This document shows, in pieces, positions 7,947-27,219 of a stretch of 27,219 nt of DNA. Position numbers and translations under genes: made by a program. This DNA is from Rhodanobacteraceae bacterium (GTDB lineage Bacteria; Pseudomonadota; Gammaproteobacteria; Xanthomonadales; Rhodanobacteraceae): NCBI GenBank assembly GCA_036503375.1, contig DASXWZ010000076.1, forward strand, positions 1 through 27,219, in the 5' to 3' direction. The notes beneath the pieces were generated by a model that was not told the DNA's origin, ran no database searches, and saw nothing but the letters and a program-made list of their open reading frames with translations. Numbering within the stretch: the stretch's first letter is position 1; each line of letters starts with the position of its first letter.

Positions 7947-8857
7947 CAGCCCGTGCTCGCCATCGTGCGTGGTGCGTGGTAGATGTCGGGCAATCCACTG
8001 CCCGGGCGCGGCTTGAACCGTTTGTAGTTCCACTGGTATTGCGCGAAGGCGAGCTGCACGCACTGTTCCACCGCGGCGTTCAATGCCGCGCACGCGGTCG
8101 GCAGGTCGGGATCGCGCAAGGCCGCCGGCGGTTCGCGGAAATGGATGATGAAGCCGGCCGACCGCGGCAGCCGTTCGACGAACAGCATCAGCACGTTCGC
8201 CTGCGTGCGGCGCTGCAGTCGCGGCAGCAGCGTCATCGTCAACGCGGGCACGCCGAAGAACGGCGCGACGACGCCGCCGCTGCGCGGCACGTGGTCGGGC
8301 ATGATCGACACTACGCCGCCGTTGCCCAGGTGCCGGAACACGCGGCGCACCCCCGAATCGTCGATCGGGAACTGGATCGATGCGCCGCCCTCGCGCAAGG
8401 CGCGCAGCAGCAATTCGAGCTGCGGATATCGCGGTTGCGTATAGAACGTGGCAAAAGGCGTTCGTGCACCGACCCAGTAGTTGGCCACTTCCCAACTCCC
8501 CAGGTGCGGCGCGCACAGGATCAGGCCTTTGCCGCTGTCTAGCGCCGCGTCGAACAAGTCCTGACCGCGCACTTCCCGCACGGCACCGAGCACGCGTTCG
8601 ATACGCGTCCAGATGCCGAACACCTCCAGCAGTGACTTGCCCGTTTCGATCAGGGACTCGCGCGACAGCTTCTCGCGCGTGACCTTGTCCAGTTGCGGCC
8701 GCACGCACGCGAGGTTGACTTGCACGATCGCGCGCTTGCGCGTCGGTACCCGCCAGAACAACCGGCCCAGCGTCGCGCCCAACGCCTGCCAGAAGCGCAG
8801 CGGCAATGTCGAGGCCGCGCGCAGGAGCGCATAGAGCAGGCGGGTGTACCAGTGCAT
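7946..8857 (-). CDS. LpxL/HtrB-family lipid A late acyltransferase, copy B (303 aa)
   Basis: [19 protein letters not shown] and QYQWNYKR motifs. It is the C-terminal part of track ORF 7946..11554. Its TGA overlaps the ATG of copy A. Confidence 0.92.
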
Positions 8858-8863
8858 CGTGCG

Positions 8864-8887
8864 AGTGTAGCCAAGAATCGGTACGCT
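8864..8887. promoter_or_regulatory. Back-to-back putative -10 hexamers for divergent leaderless genes (acyltransferase B on minus, dtd on plus)
   Basis: Minus strand TACACT (8869-8864) lies 6 nt before ATG 8857. Plus strand TACGCT (8882-8887) lies 6 nt before ATG 8894. Confidence 0.5.
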
Positions 8888-8893
8888 CCAGGC

Positions 8894-9331
8894 ATGATCT
8901 CCCTGATCCAGCGCGTCACCGAAGCGCGTGTCGAAGTCGACGGCGCAACCGTCGGCGCGATCGGCGCGGGATTGATGGCGCTGGTTGCGGTGGAGCCGGG
9001 CGACGGTGAAACGCAGGCGTCGCGCATGTGCGAACGCTTGCTGGGCTATCGCATCTTTTCCGACGATGCCGGACGGATGAACCGGTCGGTATCGGACATT
9101 GGCGGCGGCCTGCTGCTCGTTCCGCAGTTCACGCTGGTCGCGGATACCGCCAAAGGCATGCGGCCGAGCTTCACCTCCGCGGCCCCGCCGGAACATGGGA
9201 GAAAGTGGTTCGATCGCCTGGTGGAATTGATCCGCGCCACGCACGGAACGGTTGAAACCGGGCGCTTCGGCGCATACATGAAGGTGCATCTGGTCAACGA
9301 CGGCCCCGTTACGTTCTGGCTGCGGGCCTGA
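8894..9331 (+). CDS. dtd: D-aminoacyl-tRNA deacylase
   Basis: [38 protein letters not shown]; 145 aa from ATG 8894. Confidence 0.96.
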
Positions 9332-9410
9332 GGCCGGTCCTCCGAAGCGTTTTGCGCGTTTCTTGCATGGATTTTCCGCCCTGCGGTGCGCTCCGCGGCG
9401 GCGATTTTCG

Positions 9411-9439
9411 CTTGAAATAGGGTCAAAAAATCGCCACAT
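9411..9439 (+). promoter_or_regulatory. Candidate sigma32 (RpoH) promoter upstream of rpoD
   Basis: CTTGAA (9411-9416)-N15-CGCCAC(AT), compared with the consensus CTTGAA-N13-15-CCCCAT. Confidence 0.5.
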
Positions 9440-9572
9440 GAGGTCTACTGGCATTCCCCCGAGCGGGCCGCGCCGTCGGCCCTGCGTCTGCAGGGCAAGG
9501 AAGAACGAGGAAGGTGTATGTCGATCAACGACGAGTGATGACGCAGCCATGCGGGCGCAGGGCCACGGCCCT

Positions 9573-9679
9573 CCGGGTTGCTCCGCAGCGGCCGCCATAC
9601 TGCGTTGCGCGCCTTGGCCATAGTTGGCTATGGCGCTTCGGCGCACGCCTTGTCTGGCAGCCGCTGCGAAGCAACGCGG
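9573..9679. repeat. 107-bp nested palindromic element (MITE/REP-like) in the dtd-rpoD intergenic region
   Basis: 25-bp terminal inverted repeats 9573-9597 and 9655-9679 (22/25 match), with a central perfect hairpin GCCATAG-TTGG-CTATGGC (9617-9634) on the same symmetry axis. Confidence 0.8.
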
Positions 9680-9705
9680 CCCACTGGGGGGAATTTCAAT
9701 AGACC

Positions 9706-9714
9706 TGTTATACT
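9706..9714 (+). promoter_or_regulatory. Extended -10 sigma70 promoter for rpoD (TGnTATACT)
   Basis: TG-T-TATACT ends 28 nt before the rpoD ATG; no recognisable -35. Confidence 0.6.
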
Positions 9715-9742
9715 GTCCGGTTCCTGTGTTTCGCGGTGCCCC

Positions 9743-11599
<1,857 letters not shown>

Positions 11600-19778: not shown

Positions 19779-20612
19779 ATGCATCGTCGTCGTTTTCGTC
19801 GCGCGCTCGCCATGATCGCCGTTGCCGCCGCCGTCGTCGCGGCCAGTTTCACCGTATCCGCACAGCAATCGCCCGCGCTGGATCGCGTGAGCGTCTGGCT
19901 GGGCGGTTACTACTCGAGCAACAAAACGACCGTATCAGGGCAGGGAACCGGAACCTATGCAGGCATCCAGGGCACGCTGGATTTCGAGAACGACCTAGGC
20001 CTCAAGGACCACAGTGCCGATCCGCGCGCGCGCCTGGATTTCCTGATCGGCGACAGCCAGGGCTTCTCCTTCGACTACTATCAGATCCATCGGAATGTCA
20101 GTGGCGACTACGCGGCGGCGATTCCGGAACTGGGCACCGACGTCGGCGCGCACATCGACAGCAATATCGATTACGACTTCGGCTCGGCCTCCTACAAATG
20201 GTGGTTCGGGCACGCCAGCGATGTCTTCGGCATCGGGCTCGGCGCCGCGTATTACAACGTCGATTTCCGCGTGAACGGCACCGCGCAGGCGGGCGATGAC
20301 AGCACCGACTTTTCCGACAGCTACGACGAAAGCGCCTGGGCGCCGATGCTCACGCTCGGCTGGCGCCATGCTTTCGACGAGCACTGGCGCATGTACATCG
20401 ATGCTTCGGGCGTGAAGAAGAACGGCGGTGATCTCAGCGGTCACATCTGGAACGCGGCGCTCGGCGTGGAGTGGTTCCCCTGGCAGAACGTCGGCTTCGC
20501 GCTGGAGTACGCGGCTTCGCGGCTGCACCTCGACAAGAATTTCGACGAAGGCAACGCGAAACTGGATTTGAATTCCGACGGGCCCGCGTTCTACCTGCGC
20601 GCCCGGTTCTAG
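19779..20612 (+). CDS. Outer-membrane beta-barrel protein of unknown function
   Basis: Signal peptide ending VSA-QQ, alternating aromatic beta-strand pattern, C-terminal YLRARF (BAM signature Phe), RBS AAGGAGG. Confidence 0.8.
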   Translation: MHRRRFRRALAMIAVAAAVVAASFTVSAQQSPALDRVSVWLGGYYSSNKTTVSGQGTGTYAGIQGTLDFENDLGLKDHSADPRARLDFLIGDSQGFSFDYYQIHRNVSGDYAAAIPELGTDVGAHIDSNIDYDFGSASYKWWFGHASDVFGIGLGAAYYNVDFRVNGTAQAGDDSTDFSDSYDESAWAPMLTLGWRHAFDEHWRMYIDASGVKKNGGDLSGHIWNAALGVEWFPWQNVGFALEYAASRLHLDKNFDEGNAKLDLNSDGPAFYLRARF

Positions 20613-24754: not shown

Positions 24755-26290
24755 CTAGGTGCCAGCCGGCGCCCCGAACCATTGGGTGAGCGCGTCGGCC
24801 AGTCCGGCGCCCGATCCGTCGCCCACCCAAGCGACATGGCCATCCGGCCGCACCAGCACGGCGGTGGGTGCATCGACGCCCCCGATTACCGGCAGCTCCC
24901 ACGCGCCGCAATATTCCGTATCGACCGTGCGAACACGATCCGCCCACTGCATTGCGATGCCGTCGAGCGCGCCGCGCTCGCCGAAGTTGATCAGCAGCGG
25001 CCGCGCGTCGTGCAGCAGTTCGAACACCCGCGTCGGCTTGTCCGTGGTCACCACTTCCAGATCGGGCATCCGCCTTCCGAGCAGCGGGTGTCCTTCACCG
25101 AAATCGTAACGGATGCCCAGGCCGGACATCATCGCCGCGACTTTCTTGCGGGACTCGTCGCATGCGAGCAGTTTGGCCACGATCTCGCGCAACGCGGCGG
25201 TGCGATCGTCCGTGCGGAGCAGCGCGGTCTGCGCCATCGTGTTGCGCAGTACGCGCGCGCCGACCGGGTGGCGTTCGGCATGATAGGTGTCGAGCAGGAT
25301 TTCGGGCGACGTGCGCTTCACCACTTGGGCCAGTTTCCAACCCAGGTTCACCGCGTCCTGCACGCCGGTGTTGAGGCCCTGTCCGCCGACCGGCGAATGC
25401 ACGTGCGCCGCGTCGCCCGCCAGCAACACGCGCCGTTCGCGGTAGCTCGCTGCCTGCCGCGCCATGTCGGTGAAGCGCGAAATCCAGGTCGGATTATGGG
25501 CGCCGTAATCGGTGCCGCACACGGCGATCAGCGCTTCGCCGAAGTCGCGCAGCGTGGGCTCGCCTGTTCCGACATTCTTCTCGGGCACCATCACGCGTAC
25601 AGGCCCGCCCTCCTTCCAGATGATCTCGCCATCGCGGATTTCGTAATCCCGCTTGCCGAAGGCATGCGTGCCGAACGCCGTGCGGTGGACGCCCAGCGGC
25701 GGCTGATCAGTCATCTCGACCTCGGCAATCAGGTTGCTCGTGGTCGCATCCGATCCGGGGAATGCGACACCGGCCGACTTGCGGACCGTGCTGCGTCCGC
25801 CATCGCAACCGACGAGGTATTGCGCGCGCAGCGAACCGTCGGAGAGTTCGACGTCCACGCCGCTGTCGTCCTGCGCGAAGCCCGTCACCTCGCGTCCGCG
25901 AAGGAACGTCGCGCCCAGCTAGCCGACCCAGCCGGCGAGGATGCGCTCGATGTGGTTCTGCCACAGCCCGAGCGTGTAGGGATGCCGGGAGGGAAAGTCG
26001 CTGATGTCCAGCTTGACCGAGGCGAACCCGAGGGCCTGGGCAATCTGTCCCTCCGCGAGGAAGCGTCCGGCGATGCCGCGCTGGTCGAGCACTTCGATCG
26101 TGCGCGCATGCAGGCCGCCCGCGCGCGAGCCGACCAGTTCCTGACTTTCGCGCCGCTCGACGATGGCGACGTCCACGCCCGCCAGTTTCAATTCCGCCGC
26201 GAGCATCAATCCGGTCGGACCTCCGCCGGCGATCACCACGTCATGGCCGCGTATCGCGGAAGAATAGTTTTTTGCTGAAGACAAGCCCAT
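24755..26290 (-). pseudogene. Rox (rifamycin monooxygenase)-like / PheA-TfdB group A flavin monooxygenase interrupted by one in-frame TAG at codon 124
   Basis: RBS GGAGG before ATG 26290. GGGPTG, GLHARTIEVLDQRG, YLVGCDGGRSTVRK, LLAGDAAHVH.P.GGQGLN.GVQDA.NLGWKLA and LVRPDGHVAWVG. The two track ORFs share a frame and are separated only by TAG at 25921-25919 (...WVG*LGATFLRGREV...). Confidence 0.88.
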
Positions 26291-26348
26291 TCGCACCTCC
26301 AATCGCCGGTGTCCCGAAGTCCGGGCGGGCGATTGGACGGCACGACCC

Positions 26349-26367
26349 GGGGCTTGCCGCAAGCCCC
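26349..26367. promoter_or_regulatory. 19-bp palindrome resembling the rifamycin-associated element (RAE)
   Basis: GGGGCTTGC-C-GCAAGCCCC is a perfect inverted repeat (21 bp with the flanking C/G), about 60 bp upstream of the Rox-like start codon. Confidence 0.7.
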
Positions 26368-26389
26368 GTCCCTGCTAGGATATTGATAG

Positions 26390-26423
26390 TGGCGAGGAGA
26401 GCATTTCTCCTCGCCAATTTTTT
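26390..26423 (+). terminator. Intrinsic terminator-like hairpin
   Basis: TGGCGAGGAGA-GCATT-TCTCCTCGCCA (11-bp perfect stem) followed by ATTTTTT on the plus strand. Confidence 0.75.
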
Positions 26424-26514
26424 GGGTGCGATCCATAAATGCCTAAGCGTCGCATCAAACGAGATGTAGACGCGCCACTGTTCCTCGCAAAGCATCAAAA
26501 AACTGTTGCGAAAG

Positions 26515-26549
26515 GGACAAAAAGCGGACATCATGCCCGCAATTAGTCC
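26515..26549. promoter_or_regulatory. Symmetric operator-like element overlapping a predicted promoter of the methyltransferase gene
   Basis: GGAC-N5-GCGGAC-N5-GCCCGC-N5-GTCC, with its axis at 26532. It overlaps TTGCGA (26506-26511)-N17-CATCAT (26529-26534). Confidence 0.55.
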
Positions 26550-26568
26550 ACCTGCTTGCGAGGGCAAT

Positions 26569-27219
26569 ATGGAAAACGCACGGCATCTACTCGCGAGCTT
26601 GCGGGGTCGCTACAGCCAAAAGGAACTGGCTGCCATTTTGGAAACCGATGTTCGCACCCTGAGGCGATGGGAACTCGGTGAAACCGAACCACCGAAATAC
26701 CTGCCGGACGCGATTCGTCAACGTCTCCTGCCGTTGGCCAGTTACAACAACGACTCAGCGTTCACTTTCATTGATCTCTTCGCAGGAATCGGCGGAATAC
26801 GTGCAGGTTTCGAGACGCACGGCGGGCGGTGTGTGTTCACCAGTGAGTGGAATTCGTACGCACAAAAGACCTATCTCGACAACTTTCCGCATTCTGCACA
26901 CGCTTTTGCAGGCGACATCACCAAGGTTGATGAACGCGACGTTCCCGACCACGACGTACTGCTCGCTGGGTTTCCATGCCAGCCTTTCAGCATCGCGGGT
27001 GTCTCGAAGAAGAATGCACTCGGTCGTGCCCATGGGTTCGCAGACGAGACTCAAGGGACGTTGTTCTTTGATGTTGCTCGCATCATTGCGACAAAACGGC
27101 CCAAGGCGTTCCTGCTGGAAAACGTGAAGAACCTGATCAGCCACGACAAAGGCAATACCTTTCGCGTGATCCAGAAGGCGTTGGAGAAGGATCTGCGCTA
27201 TCACGTCCAATGGAAGGTG
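26569..27219 (+). CDS. dcm: C5-cytosine DNA methyltransferase, Dcm/EcoRII-like, with N-terminal Xre-type HTH (partial, runs off the window)
   Basis: Translated by hand: MENARHLL...YSQKELAAILETDVRTLRRWELGETEPP (HTH), then FIDLFAGIGG (motif I), GDIT, LLAGFPCQPFSIAGVSKKNALGRAHGF (motif IV) and ENVKNL (motif VI). Open to the window end; not in the ORF track. Confidence 0.93.
   Translation, partial: MENARHLLASLRGRYSQKELAAILETDVRTLRRWELGETEPPKYLPDAIRQRLLPLASYNNDSAFTFIDLFAGIGGIRAGFETHGGRCVFTSEWNSYAQKTYLDNFPHSAHAFAGDITKVDERDVPDHDVLLAGFPCQPFSIAGVSKKNALGRAHGFADETQGTLFFDVARIIATKRPKAFLLENVKNLISHDKGNTFRVIQKALEKDLRYHVQWKV

What the first reader, a model, noticed from the sequence alone, without database searches (positions are those of the whole stretch)
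26332..26423. The palindrome doubles as two opposed -35 boxes, and one drives a tiny terminated RNA: a possible RNA-polymerase-based antibiotic sensor
Seen: on the plus strand TTGCCG (26354-26359)-N16-TAGGAT (26376-26381) with an extended TG (26373-26374), then an 11-bp hairpin and T6, predicting a roughly 36-nt ORF-less RNA (about 26388-26423). On the minus strand TTGCGG (26362-26357)-N19-TCCAAT (26337-26332) points weakly at the monooxygenase. An alternative minus -10 TATCCT (26382-26377) would instead put the palindrome in the mRNA 5' end. Known: rifamycins block initiation after 2-3 nt without preventing promoter binding. Inferred: competition between polymerases on the overlapping promoters, altered by the drug, could be the switch, with no dedicated regulator needed; none is encoded nearby.
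Basis: partly seen in the sequence, partly recalled or inferred. Interest (0 to 1): 0.75.

Follow-up and report, generated by a model that had tools for sequence, protein, structure and literature searches.

The report
Two-way promoter in rifamycin switch
The palindrome is the known rifamycin-associated element (RAE), and comparison with 72 other copies shows it is the shared core of two back-to-back promoters, one of which makes only a tiny self-terminating RNA; this gives a testable idea of how bacteria sense rifamycins without a dedicated regulator.

Summary
The palindrome (26349-26367) is an exact copy of the known RAE. It lies 59 bp upstream of a Rox-like monooxygenase, in a Gram-negative soil bacterium.

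I compared 73 RAE modules: Rox loci from at least five phyla, plus Actinomycetes loci in front of helR-like, rox, rph and rgt genes.
- A -10 signature (NANNNT) lies exactly 19 bp from the RAE's TTG on the antisense side in 62 of 73 modules and on the sense side in 63 of 73. Chance is about 3%.
- The antisense -10 is followed by a hairpin that is conserved in position, with a T-enriched tail.
- In Gammaproteobacteria, this window included, the antisense -10 has moved to a 16-17 bp spacer. This looks like adaptation to the host polymerase.
- No neighbouring gene is conserved, so no linked regulator exists.
- Soil-metagenome contigs diverge from the window right after the T6 run, so the hairpin belongs to the RAE module and not to the methyltransferase island.

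A polymerase-only switch is plausible, and B. subtilis helD/pps offers a precedent published in 2026. It is unproven, and simple promoter occlusion predicts the wrong sign. No RNA data could be found. Earlier follow-ups in this scan reached the same architecture on other genomes.

The parts
26349..26367 (.). Rifamycin-associated element (RAE). It reads GGGGCTTGCGGCAAGCCCC on the gene (minus) strand. It is the shared core of both promoters.
   Evidence: Exact match, 0.05 expected by chance. Only copy in the genome. TTG and CAA are invariant in 46/46 aligned modules.
26354..26359 (+). -35 hexamer TTGCCG of the antisense promoter (Panti).
   Evidence: Read. TTGCCG is the antisense hexamer in 41/73 modules and TTGCGG in 11/73.
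26376..26381 (+). TAGGAT, the -10 in the 16-nt register, with TG at 26373-26374.
   Evidence: Read. TANNNT at a 16-17 nt spacer occurs in all 8 gammaproteobacterial Rox modules and in only 1 of 61 Actinomycetota, Gemmatimonadota and Acidobacteriota modules.
26379..26384 (+). GATATT, the -10 in the 19-nt register conserved across the family (TAnnTT).
   Evidence: A and the last T are invariant in 34 aligned modules. NANNNT sits at exactly 19 nt in 62/73 modules, against 10/73 or fewer at any other spacing and about 3% by composition.
26388..26392 (+). Predicted start zone of the antisense RNA, 7 nt after either -10. It falls at the foot of the hairpin.
   Evidence: Inference from the -10 positions. 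No RNA data.
26390..26423 (+). Intrinsic terminator: 11-bp stem, 5-nt loop, then A and T6. The predicted RNA is about 32-36 nt.
   Evidence: Called by the terminator scan. -21 kcal/mol, z = -6.7. A hairpin at this position is enriched in the family. Contigs from other soils keep it and diverge after 26423/26424.
26357..26362 (-). -35 hexamer TTGCGG of the sense promoter. It overlaps the antisense hexamer by 3 bp.
   Evidence: Read. Present in 45/73 modules. In M. smegmatis helR the RAE overlaps the -35 of a mapped promoter, P2 (PMC10719064).
26332..26337 (-). Position of the family's sense -10 (CA[G/T/C]AAT, 19-nt spacer). Here it reads TCCAAT, which lacks A at -11.
   Evidence: NANNNT at exactly 19 nt in 63/73 modules; the window is one of the 10 exceptions. 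Four gammaproteobacterial relatives carry a similar variant. The site is unchanged in four soil metagenomes.
26377..26382 (-). Alternative sense -10, TATCCT. If used, the RAE would lie at the 5' end of the mRNA.
   Evidence: Read. TATCTT stands at this place in relatives L025, L031 and L066, but most modules have TATAGC here, which is not a -10.
24755..26290 (-). Rox-like FAD monooxygenase (511 codons), the gene the module controls. It has an in-frame TAG at 25921-25919 and the ribosome-binding site GGAGGTG at 26300-26294.
   Evidence: Pfam FAD_binding_3 (2.9e-81) and Rng_hyd_C (1.7e-30). 70-75% identical homologues in many phyla. The codon is GAG in other soil populations.

Best explanation
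The feature is the antisense half of the RAE regulatory module, which is a self-contained cassette of about 90 bp.

Shown by comparison: the RAE is not only a palindrome. It consists of two overlapping -35 boxes (TTGCCG and TTGCGG). Each has its own -10 at a fixed distance. On the sense side a weak promoter (19-nt spacer, C at -12, 84% G+C after the -10) reads into the resistance gene. On the antisense side a better promoter (TAnnTT, 53% G+C after the -10; in this host TGnTAGGAT at a 16-nt spacer) reads away from the gene and ends at once in a hairpin terminator. Its only product is an RNA of about 32-36 nt.

Inferred: the housekeeping RNA polymerase itself reads the RAE. The antisense promoter is a high-traffic decoy, whose occupancy and firing set the activity of the gene's promoter. 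Rifamycin freezes polymerase at 2-3 nt, mostly on busy promoters, and this changes the balance and switches the gene on without a dedicated regulator. How a frozen polymerase on the decoy would help the gene's promoter rather than block it is not known.
For: - The RAE is exact here.
- -10 signatures lie exactly 19 nt from the TTG on both sides, 62/73 antisense and 63/73 sense, against about 3% by chance.
- On the antisense side the best-conserved bases are those that read as T-12, A-11 and T-7 of a -10 only on the antisense strand.
- A hairpin follows at a fixed place. At least 8 of 9 ungapped pairs occur in 29% of modules against 1.8% of shuffles. Each module's own arms pair better than chimeras (p = 5e-5). 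The tail is 46% T against 25% background.
- The same module stands in front of rox, rph and rgt genes and genes with helR-like N-termini, and in Actinomycetota, Gamma- and Alphaproteobacteria, Acidobacteriota and Gemmatimonadota.
- Host adaptation: all gammaproteobacterial copies have a TANNNT at 16-17 nt, and the window has a canonical U-tract terminator.
- No conserved neighbouring gene exists.
- The cassette ends at the T6 run.
- In the window the + strand terminator has no other client.
- Regulator-free dual-promoter rifampicin sensing has been shown in B. subtilis, and the RAE mechanism is stated to be unknown (PMC12802891).
Against: - No transcript evidence: no RNA run was listed.
- On the window alone the promoter is only 8/12 and below the scan tool's threshold.
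- The two -35 hexamers overlap, so the polymerases should exclude each other. Simple occlusion then predicts less sense transcription with the drug, not more. In B. subtilis both polymerases must fit at once, and shortening the distance between the promoters abolished induction.
- The outer arms (GGGGC and GCCCC) and both 11-nt spacers are more conserved than ordinary promoter spacers. This would also fit a bound protein.
- A 19-nt spacer is poor for sigma-70-type enzymes.
- The T-run is absent from many actinobacterial copies.
- The published M. smegmatis start sites are both sense, P1 about 20 bp upstream of the RAE and P2. The review that reports them mentions no antisense start.
- This window's sense -10 lacks A-11.
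Confidence: 0.5

Rival explanations
1. The RAE is the operator of an unlinked, still unknown dimeric regulator, either a repressor or an activator centred at about -33 of both promoters. That regulator senses rifamycin or polymerase stress. The divergent promoters exist but are not themselves the sensor.
For: The palindrome is conserved over all 19 bp, beyond the TTG/CAA bases a -35 needs, and so are both 11-nt spacers. The literature's working assumption is an unknown transcription factor. A simple polymerase-only occlusion model gives the wrong sign (own inference).
Against: No regulator gene is linked in 43-73 loci. The cassette is kept nearly unchanged in at least five phyla, so the factor would have to be universal with unchanged specificity. 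This model does not explain why an antisense -10 and a terminator are conserved, or why the antisense -10 moved to 16-17 nt in Gammaproteobacteria. Position 15 of the RAE is variable while its mirror position 3 is conserved, so the site is not symmetric.
Confidence: 0.3
2. The gene's mRNA starts at the alternative sense -10 (TATCCT, 26382-26377). The RAE would then act as a 5' RNA hairpin affecting stability or translation, and the plus-strand promoter would be a by-product of an AT-rich box that reads as a -10 in both directions.
For: TATCCT fits TANNNT, and TATCTT stands at this place in relatives L025, L031 and L066. The RAE folds as an RNA hairpin. M. smegmatis has a sense start site upstream of the RAE.
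Against: Across the family this hexamer is TATAGC, which lacks the final T. The conserved bases fit a -10 only on the antisense strand. No -35 lies upstream of it.
Confidence: 0.07
3. The hairpin is only an insulator at the edge of a horizontally moving cassette, and the antisense promoter is chance or functionless.
For: Assemblies break exactly after the T-run and the neighbours differ. The promoter scores 8/12 on the window alone.
Against: An insulator oriented to stop transcripts leaving the cassette implies that such transcripts exist. A functionless -10 would not show 62/73 exact spacing with invariant A and T.
Confidence: 0.08
4. The tiny RNA acts in trans or in cis as an anti-Shine-Dalgarno RNA on the resistance mRNA. 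Because it is short-lived, its level would report polymerase inhibition.
For: The best-conserved part of the hairpin is GGAG...CUCC next to the loop. CUCC is complementary to the gene's ribosome-binding site GGAGG.
Against: CUCC is locked inside a -21 kcal/mol stem. The outer arms vary freely. Induction is reported at the mRNA level. Any G-rich terminator would show this complementarity.
Confidence: 0.05

Closest known systems
Rifamycin-associated element (RAE) of Actinobacteria (Spanogiannopoulos et al. 2014; Surette et al., bioRxiv 10.1101/2021.05.10.443488; Hurst-Hess et al., bioRxiv 10.1101/2021.05.10.443476)
   Same: Identical 19-bp inverted repeat upstream of a rifamycin-inactivating type of gene (rox). 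The literature shows it to be required for rifamycin induction, and it overlaps the -35 of the sense promoter P2 in M. smegmatis helR.
   Different: The papers describe only the 19 bp and assume an unknown transcription factor. Here the element is one part of a module of about 90 bp with an antisense promoter and terminator. This copy sits in a Gram-negative host; the papers read here survey or report the RAE only in Actinobacteria.
Dual-promoter rifampicin alarm system of Bacillus subtilis helD and pps (Sudzinova et al., Nucleic Acids Res 2026, PMC12802891)
   Same: A strong antisense promoter is paired with a weak, slowly clearing sense promoter upstream of a rifampicin-resistance gene. No regulator is needed, because the sensor is polymerase traffic. 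Induction is lost in a rifampicin-resistant rpoB mutant.
   Different: There the promoters are convergent, with start sites 39 bp apart, both polymerases must fit at once, and repression works by collision. Here the promoters are divergent, share overlapping -35 boxes (predicted start sites about 66 bp apart) and cannot collide. The antisense transcript is terminated after about 32 nt. The published mechanism cannot be transferred unchanged.
Back-to-back divergent promoters such as lambda PR/PRM, and bidirectional promoters that arise from -10 symmetry (Warman et al. 2021). Both are cited from my own knowledge and were not checked here.
   Same: Two promoters on opposite strands whose polymerases influence each other.
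   Different: In lambda the start sites are 82 bp apart and both polymerases can bind. In symmetric bidirectional promoters the shared element is the -10. Here the shared element is the -35.

Membership tests
Rifamycin-associated element (RAE) | 19-bp inverted repeat matching GGGGCTTGCGGCAAGCCCC | tested here: met
   0 mismatches at 26349-26367, 0.05 expected by chance.
Rifamycin-associated element (RAE) | Lies shortly upstream of a rifamycin-resistance gene (rox, arr, rph, rgt or helR) | tested here: met
   59 bp upstream of the ATG of a FAD_binding_3 + Rng_hyd_C monooxygenase. Its 70-75% identical homologues carry the RAE in 45 of 80 loci. Rifamycin turnover by this enzyme was not tested.
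Rifamycin-associated element (RAE) | Needed for induction of the downstream gene by rifamycins | not testable with these tools
   Needs a reporter or qPCR experiment. No RNA run was listed.
Rifamycin-associated element (RAE) | Host belongs to Actinobacteria (as described so far) | tested here: not met
   The window encodes an RpoD with the Sigma70_ner region, a lipid A acyltransferase and an outer-membrane beta-barrel protein. This is a feature of the literature's sampling, not of the element.
Dual-promoter rifampicin alarm system (B. subtilis helD/pps type) | A sense and an antisense promoter upstream of the resistance gene | tested here: met
   Both -10 signatures are conserved at fixed spacing in 62-63 of 73 modules. 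This is sequence inference only.
Dual-promoter rifampicin alarm system (B. subtilis helD/pps type) | Promoters convergent and far enough apart for two polymerases (start sites 39 bp apart) | tested here: not met
   The promoters are divergent and their -35 hexamers overlap by 3 bp (compare).
Dual-promoter rifampicin alarm system (B. subtilis helD/pps type) | The antisense promoter is the stronger and faster one | tested here: inconclusive
   The antisense side has TAnnTT, 53% G+C after the -10, and in this host a 16-nt spacer with TGn. The sense side has C at -12, 84% G+C and a 19-nt spacer. Strength was not measured.
Dual-promoter rifampicin alarm system (B. subtilis helD/pps type) | Induction depends on rifampicin binding to polymerase (lost in resistant rpoB) | not testable with these tools
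   Needs an experiment.
Intrinsic (Rho-independent) terminator | G+C-rich stem-loop followed directly by a T run on the transcribed strand | tested here: met
   Terminator scan hit at 26390-26416 with tail ATTTTTT. -21 kcal/mol, z = -6.7.
Known RNA families (Rfam 15) | Match to a curated covariance model | tested here: not met
   No match with E-value up to 1 in 26150-26650.

The most novel reading that the evidence does not exclude
The RAE module is a portable, regulator-free rifamycin sensor that works in any phylum because its only trans-acting factor is the housekeeping RNA polymerase. Two mutually exclusive promoters share one -35 core. A drug-frozen polymerase on the decoy promoter somehow licenses the gene's promoter, for example by acting as an activator or by being removed in a way that favours the sense orientation. 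This would be a logic different from the collision mechanism shown in B. subtilis.
Probability: 0.35. Interest if true: 0.85.

Novelty: new variant of a known kind. Interest (0 to 1): 0.7.

Why it matters
The RAE switches on rifamycin resistance genes (arr, rox, rph, rgt, helR), including in Mycobacterium abscessus. It was described in 2014, and how it senses the drug was still stated to be unknown in January 2026.

Showing that the element is the shared -35 core of a conserved divergent promoter pair with a built-in terminator turns that open question into a few simple experiments. It also suggests that target-based sensing of rifamycins by polymerase traffic may be more general than the Firmicute case. 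It would explain how the cassette can move between phyla without a regulator. Finally, it gives a fuller search model (about 90 bp instead of 19) for finding rifamycin-responsive genes in Actinobacteria and beyond.

Tried and rejected
- RNA evidence: no RNA run was listed for the stretch.
- M. smegmatis start-site tables (PMC6448022) are cut in storage and lack MSMEG_2174. The arr gene has no mapped start there.
- The 2014 PNAS paper is not held.
- MAFFT with RNAalifold misaligned the 3' arms because loop lengths vary, and gave a meaningless consensus. A contiguous-stem script picked spurious stems and crashed. Hairpin statistics were therefore computed with my own anchored scripts and two controls, shuffles and chimeras. 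A first cross-pairing control was biased towards each module's own pair and is not used.
- Rfam gave no match.
- The Sinorhizobium meliloti megaplasmid Rox homologue (70% identical) was examined in the hope of using that species' start-site maps. It has no RAE and follows a LysR regulator gene.
- RAE-like hits with 2 mismatches in the host's relatives were not followed up; none is exact.
- Two recent mycobacterial papers (a HelD ChIP-seq preprint and a 2026 Tn-seq preprint) say nothing about the RAE or a regulator of it.
- Rejected: that the hairpin belongs to the methyltransferase element, and that it terminates a + strand gene, since none lies upstream.

Full report
**Observation.** The sequence is as described.
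- On the plus strand: TTGCCG (26354-26359), 16 nt, TAGGAT (26376-26381), with TG at 26373-26374.
- Then an 11-bp stem (26390-26400 paired with 26406-26416, 5-nt loop), followed by A and T6 (26418-26423).
- On the minus strand: TTGCGG (26362-26357), 19 nt, TCCAAT (26337-26332), and TATCCT at 26382-26377.

The hairpin folds at -21 kcal/mol (z = -6.7) and is reported as a + strand terminator. The promoter matches the sigma-70 consensus in only 8 of 12 positions, and the scan tool found no promoter at its threshold. In this 65% G+C window only 12 sites reach 8/12 on both strands together, and none reaches 9/12. The terminator has no + strand gene to serve, because a monooxygenase fills the minus strand from 26290 to 24755.

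**What the palindrome is.** Positions 26349-26367 are an exact copy of the rifamycin-associated element (RAE), GGGGCTTGCGGCAAGCCCC on the gene strand. It is the only copy in the 2.69-Mb genome. The RAE is a known 19-bp inverted repeat upstream of rifamycin-resistance genes in Actinobacteria. It is needed for induction by rifamycins, and its mechanism is unknown. In M. smegmatis helR it overlaps the -35 of a mapped sense promoter.

The gene downstream is a Rox-like FAD monooxygenase. The host is Gram-negative: the same window encodes an RpoD with the proteobacterial non-essential region, a lipid A acyltransferase and an outer-membrane barrel protein.

**Comparative test.** A search with the monooxygenase returned 80 loci at 69-75% identity. 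They come from Actinomycetota, Gamma- and Alphaproteobacteria, Acidobacteriota, Gemmatimonadota, Chloroflexia and others. Forty-five of them carry an RAE with at most 4 mismatches upstream.

A pattern search of 401 Actinomycetes genomes found the RAE in 112. The 30 loci fetched from that search stand in front of Rox, Rph (PPDK_N) and Rgt genes and genes with HelR-like N-termini. Twenty-seven of these loci entered the set; together with the window that gives 73 modules.

In these 73 modules the flanks are conserved as well as the palindrome.
- Sense side: a NANNNT hexamer (CAGAAT, CATAAT or CACAAT) lies exactly 19 nt after TTGCGG in 63 of 73 modules.
- Antisense side: NANNNT lies exactly 19 nt after TTGCCG in 62 of 73, and is TANNNT in 57. 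No other spacing exceeds 10 of 73. Composition alone predicts about 3%.
- In an alignment of 34 modules the A and the final T of the antisense hexamer are invariant. In the column profile the conserved bases fit a -10 only when read on the antisense strand.
- The 7 nt after the -10 are 84% G+C on the sense side and 53% on the antisense side.

**The hairpin.** Directly after the antisense -10 most modules have a stem-loop that starts at about the predicted start site.
- At least 8 of 9 ungapped pairs occur in 29% of modules against 1.8% of shuffles, and 9 of 9 in 15% against 0.07%.
- The 21 best stems include 18 different arm sequences.
- Each module's own arms pair better than chimeras of one module's 5' part with another's 3' part (7.18 against 6.62 pairs, p = 5e-5).
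- The 12 nt after the stem are 46% T against 25% background, but a run of four or more T is present in only 9 of the 21 best stems.

**Module boundary.** Contigs from four soil metagenomes of four studies match the module. Two of them (X1, X7) run on into unrelated sequence exactly after 26423/26424, and none bridges into the methyltransferase region. The hairpin and T6 are thus the outer edge of the RAE cassette and not part of the neighbouring HTH-methyltransferase element. A further contig in X7 shares the gene side up to the RAE and then carries a different antisense flank with the same layout: an 11-nt segment, TATTCT, then a G-rich arm.

**Host adaptation.** In the 27 Actinomycetes-class loci and the 9 Gemmatimonadota loci the antisense TANNNT sits at 19 nt in every case. 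In the 8 gammaproteobacterial loci a TANNNT (TATAAT, TATATT or TAAGAT) sits at 16 or 17 nt. The window's TAGGAT at 16 nt, with TGn, belongs to this group. The window also has the most canonical U-tract terminator of the set. A shift to the spacer length that proteobacterial sigma-70 prefers argues that the host polymerase really uses these boxes.

The sense promoter was not adapted in the same way. In the window and four gammaproteobacterial relatives it reads C/T-Y-Y-AAT without A at -11. The site is identical in the other soil populations.

**No linked regulator.** Clustering all reading frames in about 1.4 kb upstream of 73 modules, and in 1.6 kb downstream of 43 Rox genes, found no protein shared by more than two closely related loci.

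**Mechanism.**
- Shown by comparison: a cassette made of terminator, antisense -10, RAE (two overlapping -35 boxes), sense -10 and gene.
- Inferred: the housekeeping polymerase reads the RAE, and the antisense promoter is a decoy whose only product is an RNA of about 32-36 nt.
- Precedent: in B. subtilis, helD and pps are induced by rifampicin through a strong antisense and a slow sense promoter without any regulator, and induction is lost in a resistant rpoB mutant (PMC12802891). That paper states that RAE-controlled genes are not of this type and that their mechanism is unknown.
- Difficulty: the B. subtilis promoters are convergent and must both be occupied. The RAE promoters are divergent and share 3 bp of their -35 hexamers, so two sigma region-4 domains cannot bind together (own geometric inference). 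A frozen polymerase on the decoy should then block the gene's promoter. A polymerase-only model needs an extra step, and none is shown.
- The strong conservation of the outer arms and of both 11-nt spacers would also fit a bound protein.

I put the polymerase-based dual-promoter reading at 0.5 and an unknown palindrome-binding regulator at 0.3.

**Novelty.** The RAE and the idea of dual-promoter rifampicin sensing are both published. In the papers I could read I found no description of the antisense promoter and terminator as conserved parts of the RAE module, of the divergent shared -35 geometry, or of the module's occurrence and adaptation outside Actinobacteria. Earlier follow-up reports of this scan reached the same architecture on other genomes. 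I derived it here independently before reading them, and they are not independent evidence.

Noticed in passing
window 25919-25921: The in-frame TAG that splits the Rox-like gene is GAG (Glu) in contigs from two other soil metagenomes (X5, X7). Contigs of two further runs break at this place. The stop is therefore a strain-specific change or an assembly error, not a feature of the lineage.
   Followed up: partly
window 9578-11599 (+): The primary sigma factor gene rpoD (regions 1.1 to 4 plus the non-essential region) lies 15 kb from the RAE. With a lipid A acyltransferase (within 7949-11554, minus strand) and an outer-membrane barrel gene (19779-20609), it marks the host as Gram-negative, probably proteobacterial.
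   Followed up: partly
window 26424-27219: The HTH-fused C-5 cytosine methyltransferase (from 26569) lies on DNA that no contig from four soil metagenomes joins to the RAE module. The junction at 26423/26424 is an assembly break point with alternative neighbours. A minus-strand terminator-like site lies at 26540-26524.
   Followed up: partly
L112, L117, L119 (between the RAE and the helR-like gene); also many Rox loci such as L018, L032, L036: Short reading frames that begin MRVLLS/MRVLSS, the start of the rifamycin glycosyltransferase Rgt (compare L122, L124), lie between the RAE and a different resistance gene. The RAE cassette seems to have been recombined in front of new genes together with the first codons of rgt.
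   Followed up: no
L103:1501-2145: In one Actinomycetes locus the antisense promoter is followed not by a hairpin but by a ribosome-binding site and a divergent NADPH-dependent FMN reductase gene.
   Followed up: partly
RAE position 15 (window 26352 on the + strand): The RAE is not truly symmetric. Position 15 on the gene strand varies (A, G or C; mostly A or G in Actinomycetes), while its mirror position 3 is a conserved G. The window's perfect palindrome is the minority form.
   Followed up: no
window 26396-26411 and the same place in other modules: The best-conserved part of the hairpin is GGAG next to the loop on the 5' arm and CUCC on the 3' arm, which resembles a Shine-Dalgarno and anti-Shine-Dalgarno pair. 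The G-rich 5' arm is kept even where there is no hairpin (L103, L104). Unexplained; it could be a constraint on the initial transcribed sequence.
   Followed up: no
L126 (Sinorhizobium meliloti plasmid CP050559.1, 1139253-1139354): A 70% identical Rox homologue on S. meliloti megaplasmids has no RAE and follows a LysR-family regulator gene. The same enzyme family is thus wired to a conventional regulator elsewhere.
   Followed up: partly
window 25700-26900: This stretch occurs (25-65% of sampled words) in at least 20 soil metagenome runs from 9 studies, so the lineage or cassette is widespread in soils.
   Followed up: no
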